NCBI GenBank assembly: GCA_964457945.1
Contig: CAYWFX010000003.1
Coordinates: 99,642-163,641, forward strand
Direction: 5' to 3'
Length of the DNA stretch: 64,000 bases
Source: an uncultured Syntrophomonas sp.
Lineage (GTDB): Bacteria; Bacillota; Syntrophomonadia; Syntrophomonadales; Syntrophomonadaceae
Shown here one piece after another: positions 48,333 through 62,938 of the stretch (positions are counted from its first letter, which is position 1; each line of letters begins with the position of its first letter). The notes below the pieces were generated by a model that worked only from the letters and a program-made list of their open reading frames with translations, was not told where the DNA came from and searched no databases. A program made the translations under genes and the position numbers.

Positions 48333-48558
48333 CAAAAATACACGAACTATTTTTTGCCCTTCCACCTCAGATAACATCTTCGTGTGTCAGATAAAATACC
48401 AGCGCTTGGTCAAAAGATCGAATCTCATAACTCAGCGGCCTCAGCCCAACAAAAACAAGTGGACCATTTCTTTGAAATAAATAATATCACATGTTTGTGA
48501 ATAAAGAAACAAGATTATAAATCGGATTATAAAAATGGCGAAGATAAGGTACAATAAA

Positions 48559-50054: not shown

Positions 50055-51399
50055 AATAAATTTCGCAAATTGAATTAGCGTCCAGAAAATAAAGGACATG
50101 GGCGCAGCCGCTTGGTAAGATAGAGTTGCAACACAAAATCTGCCAAGAAAGGAGCCACGTAACCATGTCCAATAAGATTATACAACTAAACGAAGGGGCC
50201 ATAAAGCTTGAACTTAAGGAGCTGGTCCGCAACAGCGTGGAGGAAACACTCAATGAACTGCTGGAAAAGGAAGCGGTTGAGCTGACAAATGCAGGACGGT
50301 ATGAAAGAACCGAGGAACGTCAGGGGTATCGCTCTGGTCATTACGAGCGTAACCTGACCACTACCTCAGGCGAGGTGAAGCTTAAGATGCCCAAACTCAA
50401 AGGGGTGGCATTTGAGACCGCCATCATTGAGCGATACCGGCGTCGGGAAAGCTCGGTAGAGGAAGCACTGATTGAAATGTACTTAGCCGGTGTATCAGTG
50501 CGGCGGGTCGAAGACATAACCGAAGCACTATGGGGTACCAAAGTATCTGCAGGTACGGTAAGCAACCTGAACAAGAAGGTCTATGGACATATCGAGACCT
50601 GGCGCAACCGGCCCCTGCAAGGCAAATATCCATATGTATATGTGGACGGGATCTATCTCAAGCGCAACTGGGGCGGTGAATACGAAAACGTAGCCATTCT
50701 GATTGCGATGGCGGTTAACGAAGATGGTTACCGTGAAGTGATCGGGGCTGCGGAGGGAATGAAGGAGGACAAGGCCAGTTGGCAGGAGTTCCTTAAGAGT
50801 CTCAAACAGCGTGGACTGGAAGGCACCCAGCTATTCATAGGCGATAAGTGTCTTGGACTTCTTGAGGCGGTCAATGAGGTGTACCCCGGTTCCAAATATC
50901 AACGCTGCACGGTTCACTTTTACCGCAATGTATTCTCTGTAACCCCTCGCACCAAAATGAAAGAAGTCGCGGCTATGCTTAAGGCCATTCATGCCCAGGA
51001 AAATAAAGAGGTAGCCAGAGAAAAAGCTGCTGCTGTGGCCGCCAAGCTGAAGGAAATGAAACTTAAGGAAGCTGCTAAAAAGATCGAGGATGGTATTCTA
51101 GAAACCCTAACATATATGGACTTCCCATATGCGCACTGGTCAAAACTACGCAGTAACAATGTAATTGAGCGGCTGAACCGAGAGATCCGGCGTCGAACCC
51201 GAGTGGTCGGCACCTTCCCGGATGGTAATTCGGCCTTGATGCTGGTCTGTGCCAGGCTCAGGCATGTGGCCAGTAAGGCATGGGGAACCAAACGCTATAT
51301 GAGCATGAGGCATTTAGAAGAAATGAACAAAGAAGCCAACCTGGTTGCCGGTTAATAGCTAGCTACCAAGCGGCAAATCAAATTTGCGAAAAACTATTG
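50055..51399 (+). mobile_element. IS256-family insertion sequence (outer limits approximate; the left tip may continue at 48552..48558 across the IS1182 insertion)
   Basis: Terminal inverted repeats TTTCGCAAATT (50061..50071) / AATTTGCGAAA (51381..51391). Subterminal repeats GCCGCTTGGTA / TACCAAGCGGC. Mutator-type transposase ORF. Confidence 0.8.
50165..51355 (+). CDS. IS256-family (mutator-type) transposase
   Basis: Start at ATG 50165 after AAGGAG. YVDGIYLK, AMAVNEDGYREV, and QRCTVHFYRNV motifs. Confidence 0.9.
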   Translation: MSNKIIQLNEGAIKLELKELVRNSVEETLNELLEKEAVELTNAGRYERTEERQGYRSGHYERNLTTTSGEVKLKMPKLKGVAFETAIIERYRRRESSVEEALIEMYLAGVSVRRVEDITEALWGTKVSAGTVSNLNKKVYGHIETWRNRPLQGKYPYVYVDGIYLKRNWGGEYENVAILIAMAVNEDGYREVIGAAEGMKEDKASWQEFLKSLKQRGLEGTQLFIGDKCLGLLEAVNEVYPGSKYQRCTVHFYRNVFSVTPRTKMKEVAAMLKAIHAQENKEVAREKAAAVAAKLKEMKLKEAAKKIEDGILETLTYMDFPYAHWSKLRSNNVIERLNREIRRRTRVVGTFPDGNSALMLVCARLRHVASKAWGTKRYMSMRHLEEMNKEANLVAG

Positions 51400-51485
51400 A
51401 CGGTACCATGGCGAAAGACCAATAAGGATAGGCGTGAGCCTCATTCATACTTTTGTTCATTCCATTTTTGCGAATTTGTTGGCAT

Positions 51486-51537
51486 AAAAAAAACCACCTT
51501 TTGATTATTCTTACTAAGAATAATACCCAAAAAGTGG
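51486..51537 (-). terminator. Strong minus-strand intrinsic terminator, probably the original glmS terminator displaced by the Tn7-like insertion
   Basis: Long, almost perfect stem CCACTTTTTGG-GTATTATTCTTAG-TA-AGAATAAT-CAAAAGGTGG followed by TTTTTTTT on the minus strand. It lies about 95 nt beyond the distal end of the element. Confidence 0.65.
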
Positions 51538-51629
51538 AATTATACAACATTATTATAAATTATATAATATTTTTATTTACTATATAGGTTTATTATTAAG
51601 GACACTTCTTTTTTGTTTTCTAACAACCT

Positions 51630-51754
51630 TGTGTAGTTTTATAATAAAGTTTATATCGTTTCGGATAAAATAAAGGCAATATTTTAATAATAAAGTTCGT
51701 ATTAATTATTCATCTCTAATTTAAGTGCATTAAATAGTTTAATAATAAAGTTTG
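51630..51754 (+). repeat. Distal (L-like) end: terminal TGTGTAG plus three dispersed copies of (T)AATAATAAAGTTYG
   Basis: Copies at 51641..51652, 51685..51699 and 51740..51754, spaced about 45-55 bp apart, all in the same orientation. Confidence 0.75.
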
Positions 51755-51846
51755 TTCTAATTCTTCATAAGGCTATAATGAATCATACTTACAATATGGA
51801 TCCATATTCATTTCCGCAGCATTTGTCATACCAATTCATTTTATGT

Positions 51847-54800
51847 TTAATGGTCAATATTCTTAGCATCCCTTGCCGACACCAATGCCGCTTTTACCAT
51901 TTCAAGACAAGATAATTGTAGTGTTGACCACTGTTCTTCTGTTGTTGGAAGTTTTTGCCCAATAGCACCCATACACCGTTCTTCAAAGATTTTTTTACTT
52001 TTTGCCCACCTTTCTTCCTCTCCTAATTCTGGCATGCTATGAGATTTATAGTTTCTTAATTGTCGCAATATATATAATGCGGAAGCTAAGTCCTTAAACG
52101 GTACCCTGATTTTCTTATTTCCTGTCCGCATGTCTAATTTTAAATCTCTATTTAAAATGCTGTTAAGACCATCAATGAAGGAATCCCAGTCATCTGGTGT
52201 TCTCACAGTTTTACGAGCCTTATTTAACTCAACAGGATTATCCTGATTCTCAAAAATGTTCTTATCCTCTAAACTATTCTTACCAATCAGTAACTGGCGT
52301 AACTGGTGTTTTATATTGCGGATTTCATCTACAACTATACTCGATTGAGAATTATTTGAATCATCATCCGGTTTTCTACTATCTTTATCATAACCTTCAT
52401 ACTCTGGAGCAGAAATCTTCTCGGGGCGCAGATTTGCACATATGTTCTCACCCTGAACATTTTTACGACGAACCCATTCTTCAACCAGAAGGCTGCAAAA
52501 TCCAAGTTGTCCATCACTATCTGTAATAAAAACTTCGTTATCAACAAGACCTTGTATCACGTCCCCACACTGTCCAATACTATTACAATGTTTGAGCATT
52601 CTATCCCGAGATGTTCTATGGTCATTTAATAAATCTAGAATCAGATACATAACATCCTGTTCAATATGTCCGATTCTCTCTTGTCTACATATACCTTCCT
52701 CAAAATAGGTATCCTGTTCAATGAATCGTTGAATTACAGCCTCGATATCATAATTTGTAACAAAATACCTACGATGCTTGTTTAAAATATCTATTAAATC
52801 ACTGCAAATTATTTGTATGTGCCATGGGTAGCCTGCAGTCAGTTTATAAATGTAATCCACTATTTCACTTGGGATAATGACCTTGGTCTTTTCCAGTGGA
52901 GCAAGAATGGCATTCTGCGCATCTGGTTTGTCTAAAAAAGTAACCTTTTCGCTACGTAAATCTGCCCATATCTGAGCAGGGACCTTATTGGCTAGTTCAT
53001 CACTGGTGTGCCAATCTGCAAATACAACACCGAGTCCGTATTGGGAATCAGTATAAAAATTTCTCAGATCCCCAAGGCAACCACTATCCACGGTACCCTT
53101 ATTTATGCGATCGATAAGACCGTGAAACTCATCCAGCATCAGAATTATTCTTTCAATTCCCGCTTCTTGGCATTCATACAATAACTCTGCGAATTCATCT
53201 GCATCTTTTGCGATTGGAATATCGGTGCCTATACCTCTCTTTCTAAATTCTCCTTGTATTTGTCGGGATAATTTAAAAAAAATATTTGTCCATGAACCAT
53301 CCAAAGTGACAAAAACAACCATAAATTTGTTATTTGAGTCTGAAGTAATTTGTTTTTTTAAAAAGTGCAAGATAGATGTCTTGCCAACCTTTCTAACTCC
53401 TTGAATAAATGGGCGAAACCTATTTTGACGGACTCCGTTAGACAATCTCCCCAGCAATTCCTCTCTGCCATACAAATTGTCTGGTCCATCCACCCTAGGT
53501 TGAAGAGCGTTATGGTCATAAATGGCATCTACATCCATAAACTTTGAGATATTAATAATAACATCCTGAGAATAGCTTTCAGGATTGAGTTGCCTAGGGA
53601 GAGAGGCATATTCTATAACAACTCTGATATCAATAGAGCATTCTTGATAGATTTTATTAATGAAGTTAATTGGCAATGAAATATAGAGAATATCACCACT
53701 CGGGAGTGAGAGTTCCAAATCATTAGAATAAGAGTTCCATTTATCCTGCATAGGGTTTTGCACCTGAATTCGATAAATTGTTAACCCTGCCAGACCGACA
53801 TTTGCAATTTTAGCAATTACATTGACACAGATATCACCCGGTATGAAATAACTACCCGTTTCAAGTTCGAGATTAACCCGAGGCTTTTTAAATTGCTGTT
53901 CTAAATAATCAATACAGTTTCGTAAATTTTGAAATGCATTTAGCAATGCCCCTCGATAAAGAGGAACTATATTGTCAATCTGCTTATCTCTAATATCTTT
54001 TAATTGAGCCGTAATTGCGGGTAGTTCATACCCGTCCCCATTGGATTTATGTTCCAAAGCAATATTGTACAACCTATTTATTAATTCTGGTAGGAGGTTA
54101 TCTGGTTGCTTTTGTAGCGACATTACTGCATCAGCAATTTTCGGCAATAAATTATAGTAAGCGTCTGCGTCAGAAGCGGAAAACCTGCGATTTAACCAGG
54201 TTACCTCTTCAGGCAAGGAAGAGATGTATTTAGATAAATTTTTCATGTCATCTTCTATCTTGGTCAGCTTAGCATCCCAACCCCGCAATGGAAAAACGTT
54301 CTTGTAATGCATTAATGTTTGATATGTATCATAGGCTCTATGATAATCCAATAGTTCATGTCTATAAGCCAAAGCTATGCTTCGATATCCATGATATATT
54401 TGGTATGGCCGAACAGGCAATGAATCCATCAATAGGGTGGCTTTCTCTAGATTAAGGTAGCCTTCTTCAATTTTTCCCTGTCTGCTCATTGCTTTTCCAT
54501 AAAATGAATGCGCTAGGGCAAGGCTGTAAATATTTTCAGCATTAGTTTGATTGCATTCGTATTCAACTTCACGAGCATGTAATACATCCAAGAATAGTGT
54601 GCATCGCTCTTCGGAACTACCTTTATATGAGGAATAGAAAGACACCATTTGATGAAGATCACGACACCCATGTACCATGTCTTTATAAACCCTGCTTTCC
54701 GGATTCAATGGTGGGACAGTATTATGCGAATACTTTGGTATACTATTATTCTCGACTAAGAAACTGGAGGATTCCGGCCATATATGATTCAGTACATCTT

Positions 54801-56058
54801 TATATTTTATGAGAAAATCTCCAGAAATTTGAGATGCTTTCAAAAGTCGTTCCTCTGCTTCATTATTCTGACTAGCCAAATAAGCTAGCAAGCCTGATAC
54901 CATCCATGCTTTCGCATTATTGCTGTACTCCTTTTTAGTGAAGCACGAGGAAACCGTAAACGCTGACCCATATTCGCCCAGATAATAATAGGCGCAGGCA
55001 ACATTCCAGTATACAGCGGCTGGAGTAGAATTATTTTCTAAATGACTTTGTGCTTTCTCTGTAGCATTTTGGTAATCACCATTGGCAACCATGCAATCTA
55101 TTAATGCCCATTCTAATGGGGTTGAATCAAAGCCTTTTGATAATAATTGCTTGATCAGGTTAATTGATTCTTCTATATCTCCATCTGAATATCTTTCGAG
55201 AGATTTAGAATATTCAGATCTCATCTTAAGCCAATTTGAACTCTGCATAAGCTGAGCATATCTAGATGGTGGTCTAGGAATGAGAATGTTTTGAAGGACG
55301 CTTTTGACAGATTGTTGATTGGTTTGTGATGAGCTAATATGAGGTGTTTTATCAGCAATATCGTTTTGTTGCTCAGTAGATGTGAGTGATATGTTTTGCT
55401 GGAGGGTACTATCAGTGGTTCCTGGATCAGGATCTTTGCATGTCGCAACTTGTTGAAGATCTGTTTTCTTAACAGATGCTTCAACTTCTGCAATATATCT
55501 TTGAATTAGATTAGAGTTTTTATTAAGAGCCATTTGCAAATTTTGGCGAGCATTTTCAGTGTCATTACTTTGAAGATTTAATAAACAAAGTAAAAAATGC
55601 CCTCTTTCAGGATGCTGTTCCTGCGGATTATCGATCCATTCCTCTATACACTCCTGGCTTTTGCCGATTTGATGTTTAAGGTAATAAGCTTGTGCCAACC
55701 CCCACAAGGCAGGACCCACTACTGGGTTTGCTTTGTGTAATGGGGCATAGAATTCAATATAGTCGTTGTATTTCCCAATTTTAAGCCAACAAAGTGTTTC
55801 GGATATTCGACTGGTAGTAATTGCCGTTGGTCTATTAGGTAGAGAATTATTTAACTCACGAAATAGCACTGCTGCGGTTTCGTAATCACTATTATCAAAA
55901 TATTGAGCGGCCTTATTGTATTGTTCTAGAATATTAGGGCGATCAAGTACGTATTTACCTGGTCCAACAGTCCACGAACGATGAAATAATTCGTCAATTA
56001 GGCCTAGTTGTATATCGCCATCCAGTATTTGTGATAGAATAATATCAACTTGTTCCAT
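51847..56058 (-). CDS. TPR-repeat / STAND-type P-loop ATPase / C-terminal HEPN-like protein (about 1400 aa)
   Basis: The N-terminal 600 aa or so form two blocks of TPR-like helical repeats split by an S/T/Q-rich linker. ATPase: LYGREELLGRL..GVRKVGKTS (Walker A, 53377..53400) and IILMLDEFH (Walker B, 53122..53145). C-terminus: LRQLRNYKSHS, an R-x4-H HEPN motif (52039..52056). Start set at ATG 56058, which has AAGGAG 9 nt upstream. Confidence 0.75.
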   Translation of the reverse strand: MEQVDIILSQILDGDIQLGLIDELFHRSWTVGPGKYVLDRPNILEQYNKAAQYFDNSDYETAAVLFRELNNSLPNRPTAITTSRISETLCWLKIGKYNDYIEFYAPLHKANPVVGPALWGLAQAYYLKHQIGKSQECIEEWIDNPQEQHPERGHFLLCLLNLQSNDTENARQNLQMALNKNSNLIQRYIAEVEASVKKTDLQQVATCKDPDPGTTDSTLQQNISLTSTEQQNDIADKTPHISSSQTNQQSVKSVLQNILIPRPPSRYAQLMQSSNWLKMRSEYSKSLERYSDGDIEESINLIKQLLSKGFDSTPLEWALIDCMVANGDYQNATEKAQSHLENNSTPAAVYWNVACAYYYLGEYGSAFTVSSCFTKKEYSNNAKAWMVSGLLAYLASQNNEAEERLLKASQISGDFLIKYKDVLNHIWPESSSFLVENNSIPKYSHNTVPPLNPESRVYKDMVHGCRDLHQMVSFYSSYKGSSEERCTLFLDVLHAREVEYECNQTNAENIYSLALAHSFYGKAMSRQGKIEEGYLNLEKATLLMDSLPVRPYQIYHGYRSIALAYRHELLDYHRAYDTYQTLMHYKNVFPLRGWDAKLTKIEDDMKNLSKYISSLPEEVTWLNRRFSASDADAYYNLLPKIADAVMSLQKQPDNLLPELINRLYNIALEHKSNGDGYELPAITAQLKDIRDKQIDNIVPLYRGALLNAFQNLRNCIDYLEQQFKKPRVNLELETGSYFIPGDICVNVIAKIANVGLAGLTIYRIQVQNPMQDKWNSYSNDLELSLPSGDILYISLPINFINKIYQECSIDIRVVIEYASLPRQLNPESYSQDVIINISKFMDVDAIYDHNALQPRVDGPDNLYGREELLGRLSNGVRQNRFRPFIQGVRKVGKTSILHFLKKQITSDSNNKFMVVFVTLDGSWTNIFFKLSRQIQGEFRKRGIGTDIPIAKDADEFAELLYECQEAGIERIILMLDEFHGLIDRINKGTVDSGCLGDLRNFYTDSQYGLGVVFADWHTSDELANKVPAQIWADLRSEKVTFLDKPDAQNAILAPLEKTKVIIPSEIVDYIYKLTAGYPWHIQIICSDLIDILNKHRRYFVTNYDIEAVIQRFIEQDTYFEEGICRQERIGHIEQDVMYLILDLLNDHRTSRDRMLKHCNSIGQCGDVIQGLVDNEVFITDSDGQLGFCSLLVEEWVRRKNVQGENICANLRPEKISAPEYEGYDKDSRKPDDDSNNSQSSIVVDEIRNIKHQLRQLLIGKNSLEDKNIFENQDNPVELNKARKTVRTPDDWDSFIDGLNSILNRDLKLDMRTGNKKIRVPFKDLASALYILRQLRNYKSHSMPELGEEERWAKSKKIFEERCMGAIGQKLPTTEEQWSTLQLSCLEMVKAALVSARDAKNIDH

Positions 56059-56217
56059 ACTTAAACACTCCTTTTTAGGAATAGGGAAGCTCAAACTTAG
56101 AAGTCACTCTTTTAATAAATAAAATAAATATTGTCTGCTTGAATGTTCATGCCGCCAAATTGCACGTGAGTATACACTATTGTTCGCGGATACCAAAAGC
56201 CTTTACGACCTCCTTTG

Positions 56218-57210
56218 TTACGTTAAACTAATATAGAGACCCAACCTATCCTTAATAGCTTGCCTAATGTGTGCAGGCGAAATCACCATAGCTGAAGCTC
56301 CCAACGAAAGCACCGATCTAATTACTTCGTCTTTGTCGAATTCATAATAGCTTACTTCCAGTATATAAACCCCATCTTCGCGCACATAGGCTTTTCTAAC
56401 AAAATAAGAAAACAAGGAAAAGCAGCGTTCAATAACATTTTTTTCATCCTTAATAGCAATGACAAGTGGTTCGGACGCTTTTTTACTTTCAATAGATTCA
56501 ATTATATCCCTATTGTCATTATTTGTCTGCTCTTCAATATCCGAAACATTATATAGCCTAGAAATATTGGCCTTGATAGCTCTGCTTTCAGCCATTGAGT
56601 ACATGGATACTCTAAACCTGTTCTCAAGTGTTGAGTATTCTATCCTAAACGGTATAGCACGACAGTTTTCATACTTGCGATCATCTAAGGCAATATTCGA
56701 ATATTGTATTACTGACTTCTTATCTATTGCGTTAAGAATTATTTTGAAGTTGTTAATATAGTCAGCGGCTTTATAATCATCCTTATCTGAATAATTATTT
56801 CTAATATCAAAATGCTTGCTGAAATCAAGTGATTTTTGGTCCATATTAATTAGATTAGTTTGGAGTTTATCGATTACATCCTGTTCAAGAAACAATCTAA
56901 TGCGTTCATCTTTGAGTAAATTTGACAACCAAACTAATTCAATATTCAGGGGCCTTACAGGTATATACCCTTCAAGCTGAGTGTGCGCTTGCTGATTTTT
57001 ATCAAAGAAAAGTAGTTCGAAATTGGCATCAGCTTCCTTGTTTCGGTTAAGAAGAGCATCTATGTAACCGTATACAGGTTCATTAAAACAGTTTTGCATA
57101 AAGCTATCGGCAATCTCATTCTTAGTATAACTATAGCCTGCGTGGAACCGGTTAATTAGGTCAATGGTGTGGGCGATGTATTTGTTTTTATATTCATTAA
57201 ATAGCTTCAT
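56218..57210 (-). CDS. WYL-domain + WCX-like C-terminal domain protein (second of a pair)
   Basis: IPFRIEYSTLENRFRVSMY..IKANISRL has the WYL-like Sm-fold pattern. The C-terminal IRSVLSLGASAMVISPAHIRQAIKDRL is the typical WCX ending. ATG 57210 overlaps the upstream stop by 14 nt. Confidence 0.6.
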   Translation of the reverse strand: MKLFNEYKNKYIAHTIDLINRFHAGYSYTKNEIADSFMQNCFNEPVYGYIDALLNRNKEADANFELLFFDKNQQAHTQLEGYIPVRPLNIELVWLSNLLKDERIRLFLEQDVIDKLQTNLINMDQKSLDFSKHFDIRNNYSDKDDYKAADYINNFKIILNAIDKKSVIQYSNIALDDRKYENCRAIPFRIEYSTLENRFRVSMYSMAESRAIKANISRLYNVSDIEEQTNNDNRDIIESIESKKASEPLVIAIKDEKNVIERCFSLFSYFVRKAYVREDGVYILEVSYYEFDKDEVIRSVLSLGASAMVISPAHIRQAIKDRLGLYISLT

Positions 57211-58519
57211 AATTTTGAGCCCAAACCTCCAATTCTTTAAGAAATTCTTCCCGTAGTTGGTGCCTGTCGCTCTTAATAACCTCCACAAATCCCATGAAGG
57301 TTCTAATCCACGGTTTCATTTCACGTGGGTCAGTAACATCAATGGCATATAAATATCTGCAATCTCCTAATTTTCGAAGTTCGCCCCACTTGCCTCCATC
57401 TTTTATGCGTTTTACCATATATGGTTCATTTTCCGGTGTAAATGTGAATATTAACTCTACCTTAAAAAGACCTAGGTCCCTTTTCAATGGACTGGCACAC
57501 CAACAAAATTGCATATGCTCATCATAAATAGTATCTAAATCTAGTTCTGCCGGTTTGGTTCCGGTTTCCTTAATAAACCTCATACGATCTATTCTAAATA
57601 TTATAGGAATTAAATTCGTTTCTTTAAATGCACATAAGAACCGCCTTCCATAGAGTTCGTCAATAATTATTTTGTGTGGAATAACATCCTGGTTGACAAT
57701 CCACTCTATAGAATCAAATTTTCTATATTCAAATCTGATAAGAGAAGCTTTATTTACCGCAATGATTAATTGCCAAACAGCCTCATCGTCCAGAACATGC
57801 TGGAAATGACAGTGTTTAAACATAAACATATCTGCCTGAACCTCATTGCAGCTTTGTTCAATTTGCATATATTGCTTCAGTGTATCGGATAGATAATATC
57901 CCGGTGTGCAAGGATAAAAGGTGTTTTTATAAAACTTAACTGCTTGGGCAAGGTTTCTTAGTTCAGAATCTGATAAGTGCTTCAAAATATCATCAGCAAC
58001 TGCATAATATAGGTTCTTTCCCTTGTATGTACTTTTTAATATGCCGATTCCACATAATTCCGTTAATTTACGATATACGGTATTATGATTATATCTCTCT
58101 TGGGGCATTTCTGAATTATAATTTTCTATCATAGCTGAGATTTTATTTTCATCTAATCCTCCTGGATGGCAACTCAATAACTGCATTATCTTCAAGTACA
58201 GTTCAATATCCAGGTTAGTAAAGCTCTTGGTTCGAAATGAATCAATTAAATAATTAGTTGTGGTATTAAACATATTGGAACTCATTCTTACATATTTTTT
58301 CTTGTTCTCAATCTGTTCCGTAATGTTACTGTTATCAAGAAAACCTAATATCTTGCGTTTTTCATTATCGTATTTTCTAGAACTTATCCCGCGGTATTCA
58401 AAGTCTGTTCTGGAAAAGCAGCCATATATAAAAATATCTCTTAAAACGCTTCTGAGTTTTTCGTAGTTGCCGACAAAGTCTCGGTTACTGATTCTTTTCA
58501 CTCTTTCACCCCCACCCAC
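57197..58519 (-). CDS. wHTH + WYL + WCX transcriptional regulator (first of a pair)
   Basis: N-terminal wHTH-like region (NTVYRKLTELCGIGILKS). WYL region IRFEYRK..VIPHKIIIDELYGRRFLCAF..IFRIDRM. C-terminal MKPWIRTFMGFVEVIKSDRHQLREEF. Start uncertain (GTG 58519 or GTG 58501). Confidence 0.65.
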   Translation of the reverse strand: MGGGERVKRISNRDFVGNYEKLRSVLRDIFIYGCFSRTDFEYRGISSRKYDNEKRKILGFLDNSNITEQIENKKKYVRMSSNMFNTTTNYLIDSFRTKSFTNLDIELYLKIMQLLSCHPGGLDENKISAMIENYNSEMPQERYNHNTVYRKLTELCGIGILKSTYKGKNLYYAVADDILKHLSDSELRNLAQAVKFYKNTFYPCTPGYYLSDTLKQYMQIEQSCNEVQADMFMFKHCHFQHVLDDEAVWQLIIAVNKASLIRFEYRKFDSIEWIVNQDVIPHKIIIDELYGRRFLCAFKETNLIPIIFRIDRMRFIKETGTKPAELDLDTIYDEHMQFCWCASPLKRDLGLFKVELIFTFTPENEPYMVKRIKDGGKWGELRKLGDCRYLYAIDVTDPREMKPWIRTFMGFVEVIKSDRHQLREEFLKELEVWAQNYEAI

Positions 58520-58570
58520 TATTGCCTATATCGTAATTCATACCCAATCAATAAAATCCATTTGTGATTA

Positions 58571-58692
58571 AGCACTGAATAAATTTAGCAATTTCGCATG
58601 GTTTTTGAAATGCACCAATTTTAATAGGGGCTTATTATAGATACACGCTCCAGGTAATACTGAAGCAATACATCACGAGGAGGTGAAAATAC
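58571..58692 (+). promoter_or_regulatory. Upstream module copy A (conserved box TTCGCATGGTTTTTGAAATG, -10-like TATTAT, conserved 5' UTR AGGTAATACTGAAGCAATACAT, strong SD)
   Basis: Aligns base-for-base over about 100 nt with copy B at 59226..59342. The conserved box starts 100 nt before the start codon, versus 101 nt in copy B. Confidence 0.6.
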
Positions 58693-58887
58693 ATGTCATT
58701 TACAGACAGACTCTCAAACGGTCTCAAAGGAGCTACTATTGGCAGCACTGCCGTTGCTTCACTCGGCGGAAATATCGTCTCAGGAGTATGTCCAGTAGGT
58801 GGTTCTATTGTAGGCCCACTTGGAAACGGCATAACAGTCGGTTCTGGTACCGGTGTTGCTGTGATCAGTCTATCGGTACTGTCATAA
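58693..58887 (+). CDS. 64-aa glycine-zipper-like small hydrophobic protein
   Basis: GAGGAGG lies 9 nt upstream of the ATG. The sequence is rich in G-x3-G spacing (GATIGSTAVASLGGNIVSGVCPVGGSIVGPLGNGITVGSGTG). Confidence 0.6.
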   Translation: MSFTDRLSNGLKGATIGSTAVASLGGNIVSGVCPVGGSIVGPLGNGITVGSGTGVAVISLSVLS

Positions 58888-58960
58888 GTGGATGGTTTCT
58901 TTGATGGAGGCTAATCATCCTCTTCAATGCCCAACTACTAAAAAAAGGAGGTGAATCGTT

Positions 58961-59035
58961 ATGTCGTGCAAATGCTTAACTTGCCCGCTATCCTTACTTT
59001 GCCTGCTACTTAACCCTTTAAGATGTGGCAGATAG
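58961..59035 (+). CDS. 24-aa Cys-rich micro-ORF (MSCKCLTCPLSLLCLLLNPLRCGR), below the ORF-track cutoff
   Basis: A canonical AAGGAGG lies 8 nt upstream of the ATG. Read manually from the sequence. No other support. Confidence 0.3.
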   Translation: MSCKCLTCPLSLLCLLLNPLRCGR

Positions 59036-59225
59036 GCTGTTTTACTTTTTCCAGTAAGAAAGGAGGTGTCATTTCCATCAAAATATTGGCTCTGTGAGGG
59101 CTAAAAAGGTTAGTTTTTCCTTCTATTTGGAGTTTTAAATCTGGTGGAAGGACTTTTTGCAGTGATACTAGTCTATATTGCAATGGATACTAACGCAATT
59201 AAGTAGATATTTGGCGATAGACAGA

Positions 59226-59342
59226 ATTAATTTCCAACAAATTCGCATGCTTTTTGAAATGTTTCAATTAAGGTATGCAGTTACAATAAGTACATACCCT
59301 AGGTAATGCTGAATCAACACATAATAAAAGGAGGAGAGTATA
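59226..59342 (+). promoter_or_regulatory. Upstream module copy B (TTCGCATGCTTTTTGAAATG, -10 TACAAT, AGGTAATGCTGAATCAACACAT, SD AAGGAGGAG)
   Basis: Paralogous to 58571..58692, with the same spacing to the start codon. Confidence 0.6.
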
Positions 59343-60161
59343 TTGGAAAACAAAAATCATGGTGGTAGTGTATCTGCTGGTATCAAAGAGGTTTACGAAG
59401 CAAAAGTTGGTATTGAGGCAGTTTCAAGAGCTGGTCAGAATAAGAACCTACACGGCATTGTGCACGAAGTGCTCTATAAAGATGCCCAAACCGTTAATCC
59501 CTCAAACCTAATTAAAGGTACAAAAGCTGTTCTAACAAAGTCTACAACAGCTGTCAGGGACGATGTTCTCCTAATGAACGCTGGGAAAGTTGTAGGACGG
59601 ACTCAATTGAAGGATACTGTCCCATCAATCGGAAAAACTGTTAAGCAAGTTGCATCAGGTAAATATCAAGGTACAACCTTAATGGGAACCAAGGAAACGG
59701 TTAAGGCTTTTAATTCAGAGGTTGCAAAAGCAGCTTCGAATGGAGCTAAGGTGACTCAAAAAATGCAATCCACCGGAATTTCTTCTGCTGATACTGCGCG
59801 CATTGCCGGCAAAGCACTCGGAGGCAATATAACGGGTAAGGCACTTGCAAGCGCTGCAAAAAGTTCAGGTGCAGTAGGTGCAGTGGTCTCTGGCGGTTTT
59901 GAAGTCTTTTCCGCAGGCAAAGATCTTTTAGACGGTCAAATAGACGGAGGAGAATTTGTAGGTAGAGTGGCTAAAGAAGCTACTGGCGGCGGTTTGTCAG
60001 CTGCTGCCGCTGGTACTGCAGCTACTGCACTAACTACCGTAGCTGCCGGATTACTAGCTGGAAGTACAGCGCCTGTGTGGGTACCGGTTGTGGCTGGGTT
60101 TGGAGCTGCAATAGCAGTTGGTTCAGCAGCCAAAGGTTTGTGGGATTTCTTATGGGACTAA
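59343..60161 (+). CDS. 272-aa protein: unknown N-terminal domain (NLHGIVHEVLYKD) + Gly/Ala-rich hydrophobic C-terminal region
   Basis: TTG start 7 nt after AAGGAGGAG. The C-terminal 110 aa or so are GxxxG/AxxxA-rich, ending in a probable TM segment (PVWVPVVAGFGAAIAVGSAAKGLW). A short stretch (ALGGNITGKAL) echoes the 64-aa protein (SLGGNIVSGV). Confidence 0.65.
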   Translation: MENKNHGGSVSAGIKEVYEAKVGIEAVSRAGQNKNLHGIVHEVLYKDAQTVNPSNLIKGTKAVLTKSTTAVRDDVLLMNAGKVVGRTQLKDTVPSIGKTVKQVASGKYQGTTLMGTKETVKAFNSEVAKAASNGAKVTQKMQSTGISSADTARIAGKALGGNITGKALASAAKSSGAVGAVVSGGFEVFSAGKDLLDGQIDGGEFVGRVAKEATGGGLSAAAAGTAATALTTVAAGLLAGSTAPVWVPVVAGFGAAIAVGSAAKGLWDFLWD

Positions 60162-60580
60162 CAAGAACAAAATATCATTCCAGGACAGGAGGAGATGTCT
60201 TTTCCTGTCCTAGCATTTGTAAGCAATTGTAAAAATGAATTTTGATGAGAATTAAAATGTATCGATAGCTTATTGGATATTCTTTGATGAAGTATTTGAT
60301 GACTATGAGTAATCAGACTCTTTTCAAAAGTCGCAACATTTTCCTCGTTTATCTCTAGCGGAAATTCTTCTAATAAAACCACTAATACCTTTTGCAGACG
60401 TTCAATTCCAACTGATAATTGGTATAGCACATGAAAAACTTCACATTCTTCTTCAAACCATTCCATTTTGTCGAAGCATTTCATACCGTTATATATGAAT
60501 GTACCCGCAATATCTATTTCTCTTCCCAAATTAAAATTTTTATAGAACTGAATTAAATTCATAATTACATAATCTCCCAT
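60158..60580 (-). CDS. Hypothetical 140-aa protein, possibly a truncated gene
   Basis: This is the first ORF inside the glmS-proximal end. It has no recognised motifs. The C-terminal tail (TGKDISSCPGMIFCSC) overlaps the convergent gene end by 4 nt. Confidence 0.35.
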   Translation of the reverse strand: MGDYVIMNLIQFYKNFNLGREIDIAGTFIYNGMKCFDKMEWFEEECEVFHVLYQLSVGIERLQKVLVVLLEEFPLEINEENVATFEKSLITHSHQILHQRISNKLSIHFNSHQNSFLQLLTNARTGKDISSCPGMIFCSC

Positions 60581-60630
60581 AAACTATTTTTAATTCTAAC
60601 ACACAACCGGATTCGAATTAAAGTTAGCCC

Positions 60631-60728
60631 ACCGAACTTTATTTTTCAGTGGGCCATTTCACTCAAACTTTATTTTAATTACTCAGACTTTATTTTATAT
60701 ACTCAAACAATATTTTAAATCTACAACA
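60631..60728 (-). repeat. glmS-proximal (R-like) end: terminal TGTTGTAG + three abutting 20-bp repeats + a fourth copy
   Basis: The plus strand has ACTCAAACTTTATTTTAATT (60661..60680), ACTCAGACTTTATTTTATAT (60681..60700), ACTCAAACAATATTTTAAAT (60701..60720), ACCGAACTTTATTTTTCAGT (60631..60650), and the terminus CTACAACA (60721..60728). Their reverse complement shares the AATAAAGTT core with the distal-end repeats. Confidence 0.8.
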
Positions 60729-60751
60729 CTCTTAATCTTACCCCACCGCTC

Positions 60752-62656
60752 CTATTCCACCGTGACGCTTTTCGCTAAATTGCGCGGCTTATCGACATCT
60801 GCTCCTCTAAAGATTGCCATGTAATAGGAAAATATTTGCAGAGGTACTACTGATACCATCGGGGCCAGGATGGGGTTTACATTTGGCAAGAGTATCTGCT
60901 CATCGCATTCCTGACAAGCTTCTTGCAGGTTTTCCTTACATATCGCTACTACTACGGCTCCACGGGCTTTTACTTCTTTGATATTGGACATGGTCTTTTC
61001 GACCAAGTTATCTTGAGTAATCAGGGCCAACACTGGTACACCCTCATCGATAAGGGCCAGGGGACCGTGTTTTAACTCTCCGGCGGCATAAGCCTCGGCA
61101 TGGATATAGGATATTTCCTTTAACTTTAAGGCTCCTTCCATGGCTACGGCATAATCCAGACCTCTCCCCAGGAAAAAGGTATCCTGAACACCCTGGTATT
61201 TTTCAGCCAGCTTCTTAATTTTGTCCTCTTCAGTCAAAACCTGCTCCACCAGTTCATCAATATGCGTAATTTCCTCGGCTAGTTCGGCCAACTCTTGCGG
61301 ACTGCAGGTTCCTCTAACCCTGGCCAGGTGAAGCCCCAGGAGATACATTACCAAAAGCTGGGTGGAATATGCCTTGGTGGAAGCGACGGCTATTTCTGGG
61401 CCGGCATGGGTGTAAATGACTCGGTCAGCTTCACGGGCCACAGAGCTCCCTACTACATTCGTAACTGCCAGTACCTTAATACCGTTGCGTTTGGCTTCGC
61501 GCAAAACTGCCAGCGTATCAGCGGTCTCCCCTGATTGACTGATAACCATCATTACAGATTTGGGATTCCAAAGAATATCCCTATAACGGAATTCCGAGGC
61601 TATGTCCGTCTCCACCGAAATGCGGGCCAGTTTTTCCAGGACAGTACGCCCTACCAACCCAGCATGATAGGCAGTTCCGCAGGCTACAATATATATCTTT
61701 TCTACATCGGTAAAAATATCGTCTATCCCTAGATCACTGAGATCAATCATATTGTTTTTTATATTTCCCCGCAGGGTCTCCCTCAGGGCAGTGGGCTGCT
61801 CATGAATTTCTTTGAGCATAAAATGTTCATAGCCGCCTTTTTCTGCTGCTTCCACATCCCAGGTGACTTCAAATATTTCTTTGGCAATCGGGTTACCTGC
61901 AAAGTCAGTAATTACCACGGAATCACTTTTTATTACTACAAACTCGTCATCCTCAATAATGTATACCCTTTTAGTTTTCCCTATAATGGCTGGGATGTCT
62001 GAGGCCAGATAGGTTTCACCTTCACCCAGTCCTACTATCATAGGGCTGGCTTTTTTGGCGGCAATTATTTTGTCGGGTTCATCAGCACATATTACTACTA
62101 TGGCAAAGGAACCATGCACATAAGTTAAGGCTTTACGGACGGCTTCCTCCAGGGAGCCGTTATAATACTTTTCAATTAGATGAACCATTACTTCGGTATC
62201 GGTCTCAGAAACAAAATCATGACCCTCTAATATGAGTTGTTTACGTAAACCGGCATAGTTTTCTATAATCCCATTGTGCACCAGGGCAATACGCCCATTG
62301 CAATCGGTGTGGGGATGTGCGTTAGCATCGCTAGGTACGCCGTGGGTAGCCCAGCGAGTATGTCCAATTGCTAAATTAGTGACCGGAAATTCACCCAGTA
62401 CATCGACCATCTCAGTAAGTCGGCCTTTTTTCTTAACGATTTCGATGCACGCATCTCTATATTCAATAATTGCAGAGCCGCTGCTTTCTTGTTCTCCATT
62501 TTGGTCCACCAACAGTGGCTGATGCTTCTTCTCCTGGGAAGCTTTAAACATGGCAATACCCGCAGAATCATATCCACGGTATTCCAGTTTACTAAGTCCA
62601 TCTATAATTACCGGCACGGCATTACCGTTGCCTATATAACCCATAATTCCACACAT
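60752..62656 (-). CDS. glmS: Glutamine--fructose-6-phosphate aminotransferase
   Basis: MCGI(M)GYIG N-terminal Cys, RLEYRGYDSAG-type motif, two SIS domains, and a C-terminal ..NLAKSVTVE. Confidence 0.97.
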   Translation of the reverse strand: MCGIMGYIGNGNAVPVIIDGLSKLEYRGYDSAGIAMFKASQEKKHQPLLVDQNGEQESSGSAIIEYRDACIEIVKKKGRLTEMVDVLGEFPVTNLAIGHTRWATHGVPSDANAHPHTDCNGRIALVHNGIIENYAGLRKQLILEGHDFVSETDTEVMVHLIEKYYNGSLEEAVRKALTYVHGSFAIVVICADEPDKIIAAKKASPMIVGLGEGETYLASDIPAIIGKTKRVYIIEDDEFVVIKSDSVVITDFAGNPIAKEIFEVTWDVEAAEKGGYEHFMLKEIHEQPTALRETLRGNIKNNMIDLSDLGIDDIFTDVEKIYIVACGTAYHAGLVGRTVLEKLARISVETDIASEFRYRDILWNPKSVMMVISQSGETADTLAVLREAKRNGIKVLAVTNVVGSSVAREADRVIYTHAGPEIAVASTKAYSTQLLVMYLLGLHLARVRGTCSPQELAELAEEITHIDELVEQVLTEEDKIKKLAEKYQGVQDTFFLGRGLDYAVAMEGALKLKEISYIHAEAYAAGELKHGPLALIDEGVPVLALITQDNLVEKTMSNIKEVKARGAVVVAICKENLQEACQECDEQILLPNVNPILAPMVSVVPLQIFSYYMAIFRGADVDKPRNLAKSVTVE

Positions 62657-62732: not shown

Positions 62733-62888
62733 TCATCCACATGTATAGCCTTTTACTAACGCATATTACTATTCGCCTTTGTAGCTATACTAACGGTTGT
62801 GACAACCGGGGGGCACCCGCCGAATCATTCGATAAACCCCCTCCTCGTCACCCGGCCTTCAACTAACGGTTCTGCCGGGTCAGGCGCT
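62733..62888 (-). ncRNA. glmS ribozyme: glmS ribozyme (GlcN6P-dependent self-cleaving riboswitch)
   Basis: The minus strand reads A/GCGCCUGACCCGGCAGAACC...GACGAGGAGGGGGUUUAUCGAAUGAUUCGGCGGGUGCCCCCCGGUUGUCACAACCG.... This matches the conserved core of Bacillus/Thermoanaerobacter glmS ribozymes, including the A/GCGCC cleavage site (62888/62887). Confidence 0.9.
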
Positions 62889-62938
62889 TGCAAGTATCGA
62901 TTCTGAATTCCTCCTTTATTAGGTTTTTAGTCTTACTC

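What the first reader, a model, noticed from the sequence alone, without database searches (positions are those of the whole stretch)
51630..60728. Transposase-less Tn7-like element in the glmS attachment site
The 9.1-kb block directly downstream of glmS has the architecture of a Tn7-family transposon. (i) The termini start TGT: TGTGTAGTTTTATAATAAAGTTT at 51630, and at the other end the reverse complement of 60728 reads TGTTGTAGATTTAAAATATTGTTT. They align as an imperfect inverted repeat of about 28 bp. (ii) The glmS-proximal end carries three abutting 20-bp repeats plus a fourth copy. The distal end carries three copies dispersed over about 125 bp. All share the AATAAAGTT core and all point inward. 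This mirrors the 4-clustered/3-dispersed TnsB-site layout of the Tn7 R and L ends. (iii) The proximal terminus sits exactly 23 nt after the glmS stop codon, the classic TnsD-directed position, with the R-like end facing glmS. (iv) A strong terminator that would suit glmS lies just beyond the distal end (51486..51537). Despite all this, no ORF inside resembles TnsA, TnsB, TnsC or TnsD/TniQ. The element is therefore either a non-autonomous cargo element mobilised in trans or a stripped remnant. All of its cargo is defence-like or of unknown function.
Basis: partly seen in the sequence, partly recalled or inferred. Interest (0 to 1): 0.85.

Follow-up and report, generated by a model that had tools for sequence, protein, structure and literature searches.

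The report
Transposase-less Tn7-like defence island at glmS
The 9.1-kb block after glmS is a real Tn7-family mobile element that has both transposon ends but no transposase genes and carries defence-like genes; this is an already documented kind of element, here in an under-studied group of anaerobic bacteria.

Summary
Seven about 20-bp repeats with an AATAAAGT core sit only at the two ends of the block: 4 clustered on the glmS side, 3 dispersed on the far side, all pointing inward. A matrix trained only on ends of tnsAB-bearing elements, E. coli Tn7 included, recovers them. The glmS-side terminus lies 26 nt after the glmS stop; E. coli Tn7 lies at 25 nt and six related loci at 24-26. No Tns remnant exists in any frame of the 64 kb.

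The element is a non-autonomous Tn7-family element in the glmS attachment site of a Syntrophomonadaceae genome. Relatives show empty sites, ends of the same kind followed by BREX, Thoeris-like or type I restriction-modification cargo without an adjacent tnsA, stacked relic ends, and a 474-bp gene-less mini element with a perfect 5-bp duplication.

Two points count against recent movement. The window element has no target duplication, and all its cargo proteins are singletons, so mobilisation in trans versus a remnant stripped in place stays open.

Defective glmS insertions and defence cargo are already documented for Tn7-like elements, so this is a new member of a known kind, of moderate interest.

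The parts
60752..62656 (-). glmS (634 aa, ends ...VTVE, stop TAG at 60752-60754). It is the gene that defines the attachment site.
   Evidence: ORF and translation. Closest relatives are Syntrophomonadaceae GlmS proteins at 79-90% identity.
62733..62899 (-). glmS ribozyme in the 5' leader of glmS (context only, not part of the element)
   Evidence: Rfam RF00234, 99.1 bits, E = 1.5e-22
60726..60751 (-). 26-nt spacer between the glmS stop codon and the right-end terminus, the position of an attTn7-type insertion point
   Evidence: Measured gap is 26 nt. E. coli Tn7 has 25 nt; L002, L015 and L217 have 25; L202 has 26; L214 and L215 have 24.
60600..60725 (-). Right-like (glmS-proximal) end. The terminus reads TGTAGA inward from 60725. 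Three abutting 20-bp sites have cores at 60707-60714, 60687-60694 and 60667-60674. A fourth core at 60636-60643 lies in the loop of a hairpin (60625-60656).
   Evidence: Repeat family D5. Matrix scores 20.8-26.5 bits against a next best of 14.5 elsewhere in the window. Four of these sites are recovered by the independent matrix. Hairpin energy -20 kcal/mol, z = -5.8. A 69%-identical decayed copy lies at glmS in L215.
51632..51760 (+). Left-like (distal) end. The terminus TGTAG starts at 51632. Three dispersed sites have cores at 51643-51650, 51689-51696 and 51744-51751.
   Evidence: Repeat family D3. Matrix scores 23.0-25.5 bits. Independent matrix ranks 1, 3 and 17.
51850..56058 (-). Cargo: 1403-aa protein. 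It has N-terminal TPR repeats and a P-loop NTPase (Walker A GVRKVGKT, Walker B ILMLDEF). A C-terminal RNYKSH motif fits the Rx4H of HEPN domains.
   Evidence: Weak Pfam TPR and AAA_16 hits. Weak PADLOC PDC-S27 hit. TPR hits in the PDB. Motifs were read from the translation. Singleton at 90% identity. The defence role is inferred.
56221..57210 (-). Cargo: 330-aa WYL/WCX-domain protein, a putative ligand-sensing transcription regulator
   Evidence: Pfam WCX, E = 3.2e-5, above the curated cut-off. PADLOC WYL, E = 2e-8.
57200..58519 (-). Cargo: 440-aa WYL/WCX-domain protein, first gene of the minus-strand cargo operon
   Evidence: PADLOC WYL, E = 1.7e-14. Weak Pfam WCX hit.
58693..58887 (+). Cargo: 64-aa glycine-rich small protein with a strong ribosome-binding site
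   Evidence: ORF list and sequence. No family hit.
59343..60161 (+). Cargo: 272-aa protein with a Gly/Ala-rich hydrophobic C-terminus
   Evidence: Weak PADLOC PDC-M72B hit, E = 7.5e-4. No Pfam or NCBIfam hit. Singleton.
60161..60562 (-). Cargo: 134-aa protein of unknown function. It occupies the position next to the right end where tnsA sits in autonomous elements.
   Evidence: No family hit. Not TnsA-like: local HMM E = 1.4.
58589..58673 (+). First copy of a duplicated 85-nt leader or promoter region. The second copy is at 59238-59322. Each copy lies upstream of one of the two plus-strand glycine-rich genes.
   Evidence: Direct repeat D1, 72% identity. Sequence.
51486..51537 (-). Strong intrinsic terminator about 95 nt beyond the left terminus, suited to be the original glmS terminator
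   Evidence: Fold of 51478-51545 on the minus strand: 19-bp stem followed by U8, z = -4.7
51540..51625 (-). Possible decayed right end of an older insertion, abutting the present left end (weak). It shows a TGT followed by AA-rich cores at a 20-nt period, and starts 6 nt after the left terminus.
   Evidence: Its composite 4-site score ranks 2nd of 1724 TGT positions in the window. Shuffle p = 0.0006, but the single sites score poorly.
48543..51407 (+). IS256-family insertion sequence with an 8-bp duplication (ATGGCGAA). An IS1182-family insertion sequence (48559-50054) is nested in its left inverted repeat. Both lie outside the element, about 224 nt beyond the left terminus.
   Evidence: Pfam Transposase_mut, E = 4e-110, and DUF772 plus DDE_Tnp_1_6. 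Inverted repeats. Flanking sequences.

Best explanation
Window 51632-60725 (9,094 bp) is a non-autonomous member of the Tn7 family lying in the glmS attachment site of a Syntrophomonadaceae chromosome.

Shown:
- It has TGT...ACA termini.
- It has seven TnsB-type binding-site repeats, 4 clustered next to glmS and 3 dispersed at the far end. They follow the grammar of Tn7 itself: the AATAAAGT core begins 11 nt from the terminal T, and the clustered sites repeat every 20 bp.
- Its clustered end faces glmS, 26 nt after the stop codon.
- It encodes no TnsA, TnsB, TnsC or TnsD/TniQ.

Inferred:
- It was placed there by a TnsABC+TnsD-type machine supplied in trans by an autonomous Tn7-like element of the large Firmicutes clade. 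A TnsD-like protein would read the 3' end of glmS, TnsC would set the distance, and TnsA/B would cut and join at the TGT/ACA ends.
- It can move again only when such a helper is present.
- Its cargo most likely acts as an anti-phage module. The cargo is two WYL/WCX regulators, a 1403-aa TPR/P-loop/HEPN-like protein, two glycine-rich proteins and a 134-aa unknown.
- A hairpin in the right end and the old terminator beyond the left end would insulate glmS and the cargo from each other.
For: - End grammar is specific and non-circular. A matrix trained only on ends of tnsAB-bearing elements, including E. coli Tn7, places 6 of its 27 window hits in the two 130-nt ends.
- My remembered Tn7 right-end sequence was verified at 100% identity in 110 E. 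coli genomes, next to TnsA.
- Ends of the same kind are followed by TnsA, TnsB, TnsC and TnsD in L099, L111, L133, L170, L172, L185 and L210-L213.
- The gap from the glmS stop to the terminus is 24-26 nt in the window, six related loci and E. coli Tn7.
- Site polymorphism exists among relatives. Empty sites: L001, L204-L209, L218-L227. Occupied sites with other cargo: L002 with BREX, L202 with a ThsB-TIR gene, L215 and L217 with type I restriction-modification.
- Moves in trans by gene-less elements of this family are visible. L215 carries a 474-bp element with intact termini and a perfect 5-bp duplication (AGAGC) at the glmS site. It is identical in an independent assembly. L192 carries a 288-bp element that is ends only.
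- None of five occupied Syntrophomonadaceae sites has tnsA beside the glmS-proximal end.
- No tns remnant exists in six frames of the window.
- G+C is lower in the block than in the flanks.
Against: - There is no 5-bp target-site duplication: the flanks read AGTGT and CAAGG. The two ends may therefore not stem from one simple insertion at this site.
- All five cargo proteins are singletons at 90% identity among about 15 billion proteins, so there is no sign that this particular element has spread.
- No autonomous element with matching ends was found in Syntrophomonadaceae. Only 64 kb of the source genome is visible, and none of 80 glmS loci from other genomes carries tnsAB within 10 kb.
- The innermost terminal site R1 has a core with two mismatches (AATATTGT).
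- The far ends of L002, L202, L215 and L217 were not seen, so those elements could still carry tns genes distally.
- The defence function of the cargo rests on weak domain hits.
Confidence: 0.55

Rival explanations
1. The block is a remnant stripped in place, or a hybrid. Under this reading, one or two complete Tn7-like elements once sat at this glmS site. A deletion or a recombination between stacked elements then removed the tns operon. It left a right end and a left end from different events around surviving cargo. The block is now fixed and is inherited only vertically.
For: - The 5-bp duplication is missing although both ends are well preserved.
- A possible decayed right end abuts the left terminus.
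- Stacked and decayed ends are common at glmS in relatives: L214, L215 and L217. Tandem autonomous elements also occur, as in L210.
- The cargo proteins are singletons.
- In A. baumannii most glmS insertions are defective, and mismatched duplications are read as multiple events or deletions (PMC11014353).
Against: - No pseudogene or fragment of any tns gene is left in any frame.
- The region next to the right end is compact, and all seven sites and both TGT termini are intact.
- Insertions at the same glmS distance duplicate the same 5 bp, so a simple deletion between stacked elements would still leave matching flanks.
- Gene-less elements with fresh duplications exist in the same bacterial family.
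Confidence: 0.35
2. The element is autonomous through an unrecognised transposition machinery encoded among its unknown genes. Candidates are the 134-aa protein in the tnsA position, or the P-loop protein acting like TnsC.
For: - The 134-aa gene sits where tnsA sits in autonomous elements.
- The 1403-aa protein has a P-loop of the AAA_16 type.
- Several relatives also lack tnsA beside the right end.
Against: - No DDE/RNase H-like, TnsA-like, TniB-like or TniQ-like signal was found in Pfam, NCBIfam, PADLOC or the local HMMs.
- The genes next to the right end differ completely between the window, L002, L202, L215 and L217, so no conserved core gene exists.
- The end grammar is that of TnsB-type transposases.
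Confidence: 0.04
3. The block is not a transposon. The repeats would be chance AT-rich intergenic motifs or regulatory repeats, and the block would be an ordinary variable region or an island moved by another recombinase.
For: - The flanking intergenic DNA is AT-rich.
- There is no target duplication.
Against: - The seven sites are the only high-scoring ones in 64 kb.
- They have the exact Tn7 geometry, orientation and 4/3 asymmetry.
- The same end type recurs 24-26 nt after glmS in seven loci.
- No integrase or recombinase gene is present.
Confidence: 0.03

Closest known systems
Tn7 (E. coli prototype) and TnsD/glmS-targeting Tn7-like transposons
   Same: - TGT...ACA termini.
- An AATAAAGT core 11 nt from the terminus.
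- About 20-22-bp TnsB-site repeats, clustered at the glmS-proximal end and dispersed at the other end.
- Insertion about 25 nt after the glmS stop, with the clustered end facing glmS.
   Different: - No tnsA, tnsB, tnsC, tnsD or tnsE genes.
- No 5-bp duplication.
- The outer parts of the sites and the terminal 8 bp differ in sequence.
- The host is an anaerobic Firmicute.
Defective or tns-less Tn7-like insertions and genomic islands at glmS (A. baumannii survey, PMC11014353; Parks & Peters 2007, J Bacteriol 189:2170, from my own knowledge, paper not held)
   Same: - A glmS-linked island with Tn7-type ends but without a working transposition module.
- Stacked or decayed ends in related genomes.
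- Mismatched duplications that point to several events.
   Different: - Here both ends and all seven sites look intact, and no tns fragment is left.
- Those reports mostly describe decayed elements that keep some tns genes or lack recognisable ends.
Laboratory mini-Tn7 vectors, and defective Tn402/Tn5053 derivatives such as class 1 integrons, which move when Tni proteins are supplied in trans (own knowledge)
   Same: Cargo bounded only by the cis-acting ends. Movement depends wholly on transposition proteins supplied from elsewhere.
   Different: - This is a natural element.
- Mobilisation in trans is inferred, not shown.
- The helper has not been identified.
Tn7-like transposons with defence cargo (Benler et al. 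2021, PMC8649781)
   Same: Defence-type cargo. Relatives carry BREX, a Thoeris-like TIR gene and type I restriction-modification. The window carries a WYL-regulated NTPase module.
   Different: That survey was seeded on core Tns proteins, so elements without them, like this one, were outside its reach.

Membership tests
Tn7-family (Tn7-like) transposon | Terminal 5'-TGT...ACA-3' with imperfect terminal inverted repeats | tested here: met
   The left end reads TGTAGTTTT from 51632. The right end reads TGTAGATTT as the reverse complement of 60725. They match at 17 of the first 21 positions.
Tn7-family (Tn7-like) transposon | Several TnsB-binding-site repeats in each end, pointing inward, asymmetric between the ends (clustered right, dispersed left) | tested here: met
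   There are 4 sites at 60628-60720 and 3 sites at 51637-51759. They are recovered by a matrix trained on tnsAB-bearing elements. The core is 11 nt from the terminus, as in E. coli Tn7.
Tn7-family (Tn7-like) transposon | 5-bp target-site duplication | tested here: not met
The flanks are AGTGT (60726-60730, read on the glmS strand) and CAAGG (51627-51631). Only an imperfect 9-nt similarity exists (TAAGAGTGT against CAAGGTTGT, 6 of 9). A relative, the L215 mini element, does have a perfect AGAGC duplication.
Tn7-family (Tn7-like) transposon | Core genes tnsB (DDE transposase) and tnsC (AAA+ regulator), plus a tniQ/tnsD target selector and often tnsA | tested here: not met
   Pfam, NCBIfam and PADLOC on all ORFs and six-frame local HMMs find none. 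The element is therefore filed as a non-autonomous derivative, not as an autonomous Tn7-like transposon.
TnsD/glmS (attTn7) targeting subgroup | Insertion at a fixed short distance downstream of the glmS stop codon, in one orientation, with the right end proximal | tested here: met
   The gap is 26 nt, against 25 nt for E. coli Tn7 and 24-26 nt in L002, L015, L202, L214, L215 and L217. The clustered-site end faces glmS.
TnsD/glmS (attTn7) targeting subgroup | Presence/absence polymorphism of the insertion among related genomes | tested here: met
   Empty sites: L001, L204-L209, L218-L227. Occupied sites with other cargo: L002, L202, L215, L217. The nearest relative seen has 90% GlmS identity, so no strain-level empty site is available.
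Non-autonomous (trans-mobilised) transposon derivative | A cognate transposase elsewhere that binds these ends and moves the element | not testable with these tools
   Autonomous Firmicutes elements with the same site grammar exist (L099, L210-L213). None could be tied to this genome, and binding and transposition need experiments.
Anti-phage defence island | Cargo matches known defence systems | tested here: inconclusive
   WYL hits have E = 2e-8 and 1.7e-14. The other PADLOC hits are weak, with E above 1e-4. The P-loop and Rx4H motifs were read by eye. Relatives at the same site carry BREX, ThsB-TIR and type I restriction-modification.

The most novel reading that the evidence does not exclude
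Syntrophomonadaceae, and perhaps many Firmicutes, may host a guild of natural 'mini-Tn7' cassettes. These would be bounded only by TnsB-type ends and loaded with defence systems. Helper TnsABCD elements carried on conjugative elements would swap them in and out of the glmS site. The result would be a cassette-exchange system for immunity genes that surveys seeded on transposase genes cannot see.
Probability: 0.3. Interest if true: 0.6.

Novelty: new member of a known kind. Interest (0 to 1): 0.38.

Why it matters
It shows that the glmS site of Syntrophomonadaceae is a hot spot where Tn7-type ends deliver defence genes. These bacteria are key fatty-acid-oxidising syntrophs of anaerobic digesters.

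At least some of the elements at this site have no transposase of their own. Catalogues of Tn7-like transposons start from TnsB, so they miss such elements. A search that starts from the end repeats finds them readily.

For annotation, the practical result is exact element boundaries and a flag that the cargo is a candidate anti-phage module of unknown type: two WYL regulators with a TPR/P-loop/HEPN-like protein. The general principle is already known.

Tried and rejected
- **Exact look-up of the source contig.** Look-ups through GlmS failed, so the rest of the 231,870-nt contig could not be searched for tns genes.
- **Scan of 80 glmS loci from GTDB genomes.** No tnsAB was found within 10 kb of glmS in any of them, so no autonomous glmS element was found among Firmicutes relatives by this route.
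- **L170 and L185.** Their ends looked closest to the window's, but their TnsB relatives are gammaproteobacterial: Rheinheimera, Vibrio and Marinobacter. I rejected them as lineage-specific helpers.
- **Target duplication.** I tried several alternative boundaries and found no perfect 5-bp repeat. A 7-nt repeat TACAACA (51543-51549 and 60722-60728) does not fit TGT/ACA termini, so I rejected it as chance.
- **Idea that the 134-aa ORF is a TnsA remnant.** Rejected: E = 1.4.
- **Cargo in other loci.** No cargo homologue was found in any fetched locus. NCBIfam and PDB sequence searches gave only TPR hits.
- **Rfam scan.** It found only the glmS ribozyme and no RNA family inside the element.
- **Metagenome pattern scan.** Many hits are ends of unrelated high-G+C Tn7-like families or left ends, and I did not analyse them further.
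- **Literature.** I found no open-access description of natural miniature Tn7-family elements. Parks & Peters 2007 is not held in the library.


Full report
**1. What is in the sequence**

glmS is the minus-strand ORF 60752-62656. It ends in ...VTVE with stop TAG at 60752-60754. Its ribozyme leader lies at 62733-62899. Upstream is a phosphoglucosamine mutase-like gene.

Downstream of glmS lies a block with about 37% G+C, against about 45% in the flanks. The block has repeat-rich ends.

- The glmS-proximal end has three abutting 20-bp repeats at 60661-60720. A fourth copy has its core at 60636-60643.
- The distal end has three copies with cores at 51643, 51689 and 51744.
- All seven copies read inward.

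AATAAAGTT occurs 7 times in the window against 1.2 expected, and 5 of the 7 lie in these ends. A matrix built from the seven sites scores them at 20.8-26.5 bits, while the next best position in 64 kb scores 14.5. That test is circular, so I ran an independent one (section 2).

**2. Independent test of the Tn7 reading**

I first checked my memory of the Tn7 right end. The remembered sequence is 100% identical to 110 E. coli genomes and lies next to TnsA. In one of those genomes the glmS CDS ends at locus position 2475 and the right end starts at 2501, a gap of 25 nt. The right end reads TGTGGGCGGAC|AATAAAGTCT..., so the same AATAAAGT core begins 11 nt after the terminal T.

A metagenome scan for two cores spaced 20 bp apart returned many such ends. 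In several contigs the end is followed directly by transposition genes:

- TnsA (Pfam Tn7_TnsA-like_N);
- TnsB (Mu-transpos_C);
- TnsC (AAA_22/TniB);
- TnsD (TnsD plus TniQ).

These contigs are L099, L111, L133, L170, L172 and L185.

The L099-type TnsB has more than 4,000 relatives, some named as Firmicutes. Contigs that carry such relatives (L210-L213) show tnsA-B-C-D operons. The L210/L211 ends read TGTTAAATAAC|AATAAAGTTTGACAC and TGTTACCTCCG|AATAAAGTTTGATAT.

I built a matrix from 23 sites of eight such ends, with none from the window or its relatives. It gives 27 hits of at least 9 bits in the window. Six of them fall in the two 130-nt ends, at ranks 1, 3, 4, 5, 7 and 17. About 0.1 would be expected there by chance.

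The repeats are therefore TnsB-type sites in the same sense as those of Tn7.

**3. Corrected boundaries and position**

With the 11-nt offset, the termini are TGTAG at 51632 and TGTAGA read inward from 60725. The element is 9,094 bp long.

The gap from the glmS stop to the terminus is shown below.

| Locus | Gap (nt) |
|---|---|
| Window | 26 |
| L202 | 26 |
| L002 | 25 |
| L015 | 25 |
| L217 | 25 |
| E. coli Tn7 | 25 |
| L214 | 24 |
| L215 | 24 |

The terminator at 51486-51537 on the minus strand is real: a 19-bp stem followed by U8, z = -4.7. It lies about 95 nt past the left terminus. A second hairpin (60625-60656) sits inside the right end, z = -5.8. L002 and L202 have hairpins at the same place. 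This suggests that read-through from glmS is stopped inside the right end; that step is inference.

**4. No transposition genes**

Pfam on all large ORFs of the window found no TnsA, rve/Mu, TniB or TniQ domain. Local HMMs do detect E. coli Tn7 TnsA (1e-77) and TnsB (1e-160). Run on all six frames of the 64 kb, they gave nothing better than E = 0.1.

Two insertion sequences lie to the left of the element. One is IS256-family (48543-51407) with an 8-bp duplication, ATGGCGAA. An IS1182-family element (48559-50054) is nested in its left inverted repeat. Both are outside the element.

**5. Relatives**

The organism is a Syntrophomonadaceae. GlmS is 79-90% identical to proteins from metagenome-assembled genomes of that family. 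The IS1182 transposase clusters with a protein named 'MAG... Syntrophomonadaceae bacterium'.

Among relatives the glmS site is found in three states.

Empty sites:
- L001;
- L204-L209;
- L218-L227.

Sites occupied by the same kind of end with other cargo and no tnsA next to it:
- L002, with an XRE-type regulator and BREX genes brxA, brxB, brxC and pglX;
- L202, with an unknown gene and a ThsB-TIR gene;
- L215/L216 and L217, with type I restriction-modification.

Sites littered with relic ends:
- L214, L217 and L015.

L215 is the most informative; it lies on a 3.82-Mb contig. After a 24-nt gap ending in AGAGC comes a 474-bp element. It has TGTTGAC... termini, three abutting right-end sites and one left-end site, and no gene. 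It is flanked by a perfect AGAGC duplication, and the whole sequence is identical in an independent assembly. Inside it lies a decayed copy of the window's own right end, hairpin included. The copy is 69% identical over 114 columns, with an alignment score of 37 against -5.7 +/- 4.8 for shuffles. Right after the second AGAGC, a third kind of right end starts the restriction-modification island.

L192 begins with a 288-bp element made of ends only. Its termini (TGTAGTC...) and sites (AATAAAGTTTGATAT) are the closest to the window's.

Gene-less members of this end family therefore exist, and at least one carries a perfect 5-bp duplication.

**6. What speaks against recent movement of the window element**

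The 5 bp on its two sides differ: AGTGT next to the right end and CAAGG next to the left end. No alternative boundary gives a perfect duplication.

The flank beyond the left end shows a weak signal of a decayed right end. It starts 6 nt after the left terminus. Its composite score ranks 2nd of 1724 TGT positions, with a shuffle p of 0.0006, but its single sites score poorly. Together with the stacked ends in L215 and L217, this suggests a history of several events at the site. It does not by itself explain the mismatch, because insertions at the same distance from glmS duplicate the same 5 bp.

All cargo proteins are singletons at 90% identity in a collection of about 15 billion proteins.

**7. 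Cargo**

The minus-strand operon has three genes:
- a 440-aa WYL/WCX protein;
- a 330-aa WYL/WCX protein;
- a 1403-aa protein with TPR repeats, a P-loop (Walker A GVRKVGKT, Walker B ILMLDEF) and a C-terminal RNYKSH motif that fits the HEPN Rx4H pattern.

The plus strand has two genes for glycine-rich proteins of 64 aa and 272 aa. Each lies behind a copy of an 85-nt duplicated leader. A 134-aa unknown lies next to the right end.

WYL regulators commonly control defence operons; that statement is from my own knowledge. PADLOC hits other than WYL are weak. 'Defence-like' is therefore a reasonable but unproven label. It is helped by the defence cargo at the same site in relatives.

**8. Comparison with what is known, and verdict**

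- In 203 closed A. baumannii genomes, 54 show a Tn7-like insertion at glmS. Only 21 were judged functional, and mismatching duplications are used there to infer multiple events (PMC11014353).
- Defence genes are a major cargo class of Tn7-like transposons. That survey was seeded on core Tns proteins (PMC8649781).
- Genomic islands at attTn7 with vestigial ends were described by Parks & Peters 2007. I cite this from my own knowledge; the paper is not held.
- Trans-mobilisation of defective relatives, namely mini-Tn7 vectors and Tn402-derived class 1 integrons, is textbook knowledge (own knowledge).

The finding is thus real and correctly interpreted, but it belongs to a known kind. The modestly new aspects are two. 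This element has intact ends and no gene remnants at all. There is also family-level evidence for natural gene-less Tn7-type cassettes in Syntrophomonadaceae.

My probabilities:
- 0.55 that it arrived or moves with helper proteins in trans;
- 0.35 that it is a remnant or hybrid formed in place;
- less than 0.1 for anything else.

Interest: 0.38.

Noticed in passing
L215:11838-12321 (also L216): A 474-bp gene-less miniature Tn7-like element sits in the glmS site on a 3.82-Mb Syntrophomonadaceae contig. It has TGTTGAC termini, 3+1 sites and a perfect 5-bp duplication (AGAGC). It encloses a decayed copy of the window-type right end. A third kind of right end follows it and starts a type I restriction-modification island.
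   Followed up: partly
L192:1-288: A 288-bp ends-only Tn7-like element: 3 dispersed left sites directly followed by 4 abutting right sites. The contig starts exactly at its TGTAG terminus, which suggests an assembly break at a repeated element. Its sites are the closest to those of the window.
   Followed up: partly
window 48543-51407: An IS1182-family insertion sequence (48559-50054) has perfect 16-bp inverted repeats and an AATAAA duplication. It is nested in the left inverted repeat of an IS256-family element, which is flanked by an 8-bp duplication (ATGGCGAA). Both lie between the element and the hydE/hydG/hydF hydrogenase maturation genes.
   Followed up: partly
window 58589-58673 and 59238-59322: An 85-nt direct repeat (72% identity) lies upstream of each of the two plus-strand genes for glycine-rich proteins (64 aa and 272 aa). 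It may be a duplicated promoter or operator, perhaps the target of the two WYL regulators. There is no Rfam match.
   Followed up: partly
window 51540-51625 (minus strand): An AT-rich stretch starts with a TGT and has AA-rich cores at a 20-nt period, 6 nt beyond the left terminus. It may be the decayed right end of an older insertion. Its composite score ranks 2nd of 1724 TGT positions, p = 0.0006, but its single sites are poor.
   Followed up: partly
window 62733-62899 (minus strand): A glmS ribozyme (RF00234, 99 bits) lies in the glmS leader, as is usual for Firmicutes.
   Followed up: yes
L097, L100, L101, L108, L120, L157, L160, L166, L168, L169, L195: A family of ends from anaerobic-digester metagenomes reads TGTATAATTCAAATAAAGTTCACTCC... 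It has 3 abutting sites followed by a conserved hairpin. It is sometimes repeated in tandem (L101, L168) and is followed by ordinary-looking genes, not by tnsA. These may be further gene-less elements or relic ends.
   Followed up: no
L210:1-15604: Two autonomous tnsA-B-C-D elements lie in tandem. The left terminus of the first and the right terminus of the second are separated by only 5 nt (GGAGG). An AEP-TOTE/helicase/PLD gene lies between tnsA and tnsB of the first element.
   Followed up: no
L153, L191 (metagenome): High-G+C ends adjacent to glmS have TnsD-like genes but no tnsA or tnsB near the glmS-proximal end. In some families the gene order relative to glmS therefore differs from that of Tn7.
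   Followed up: no
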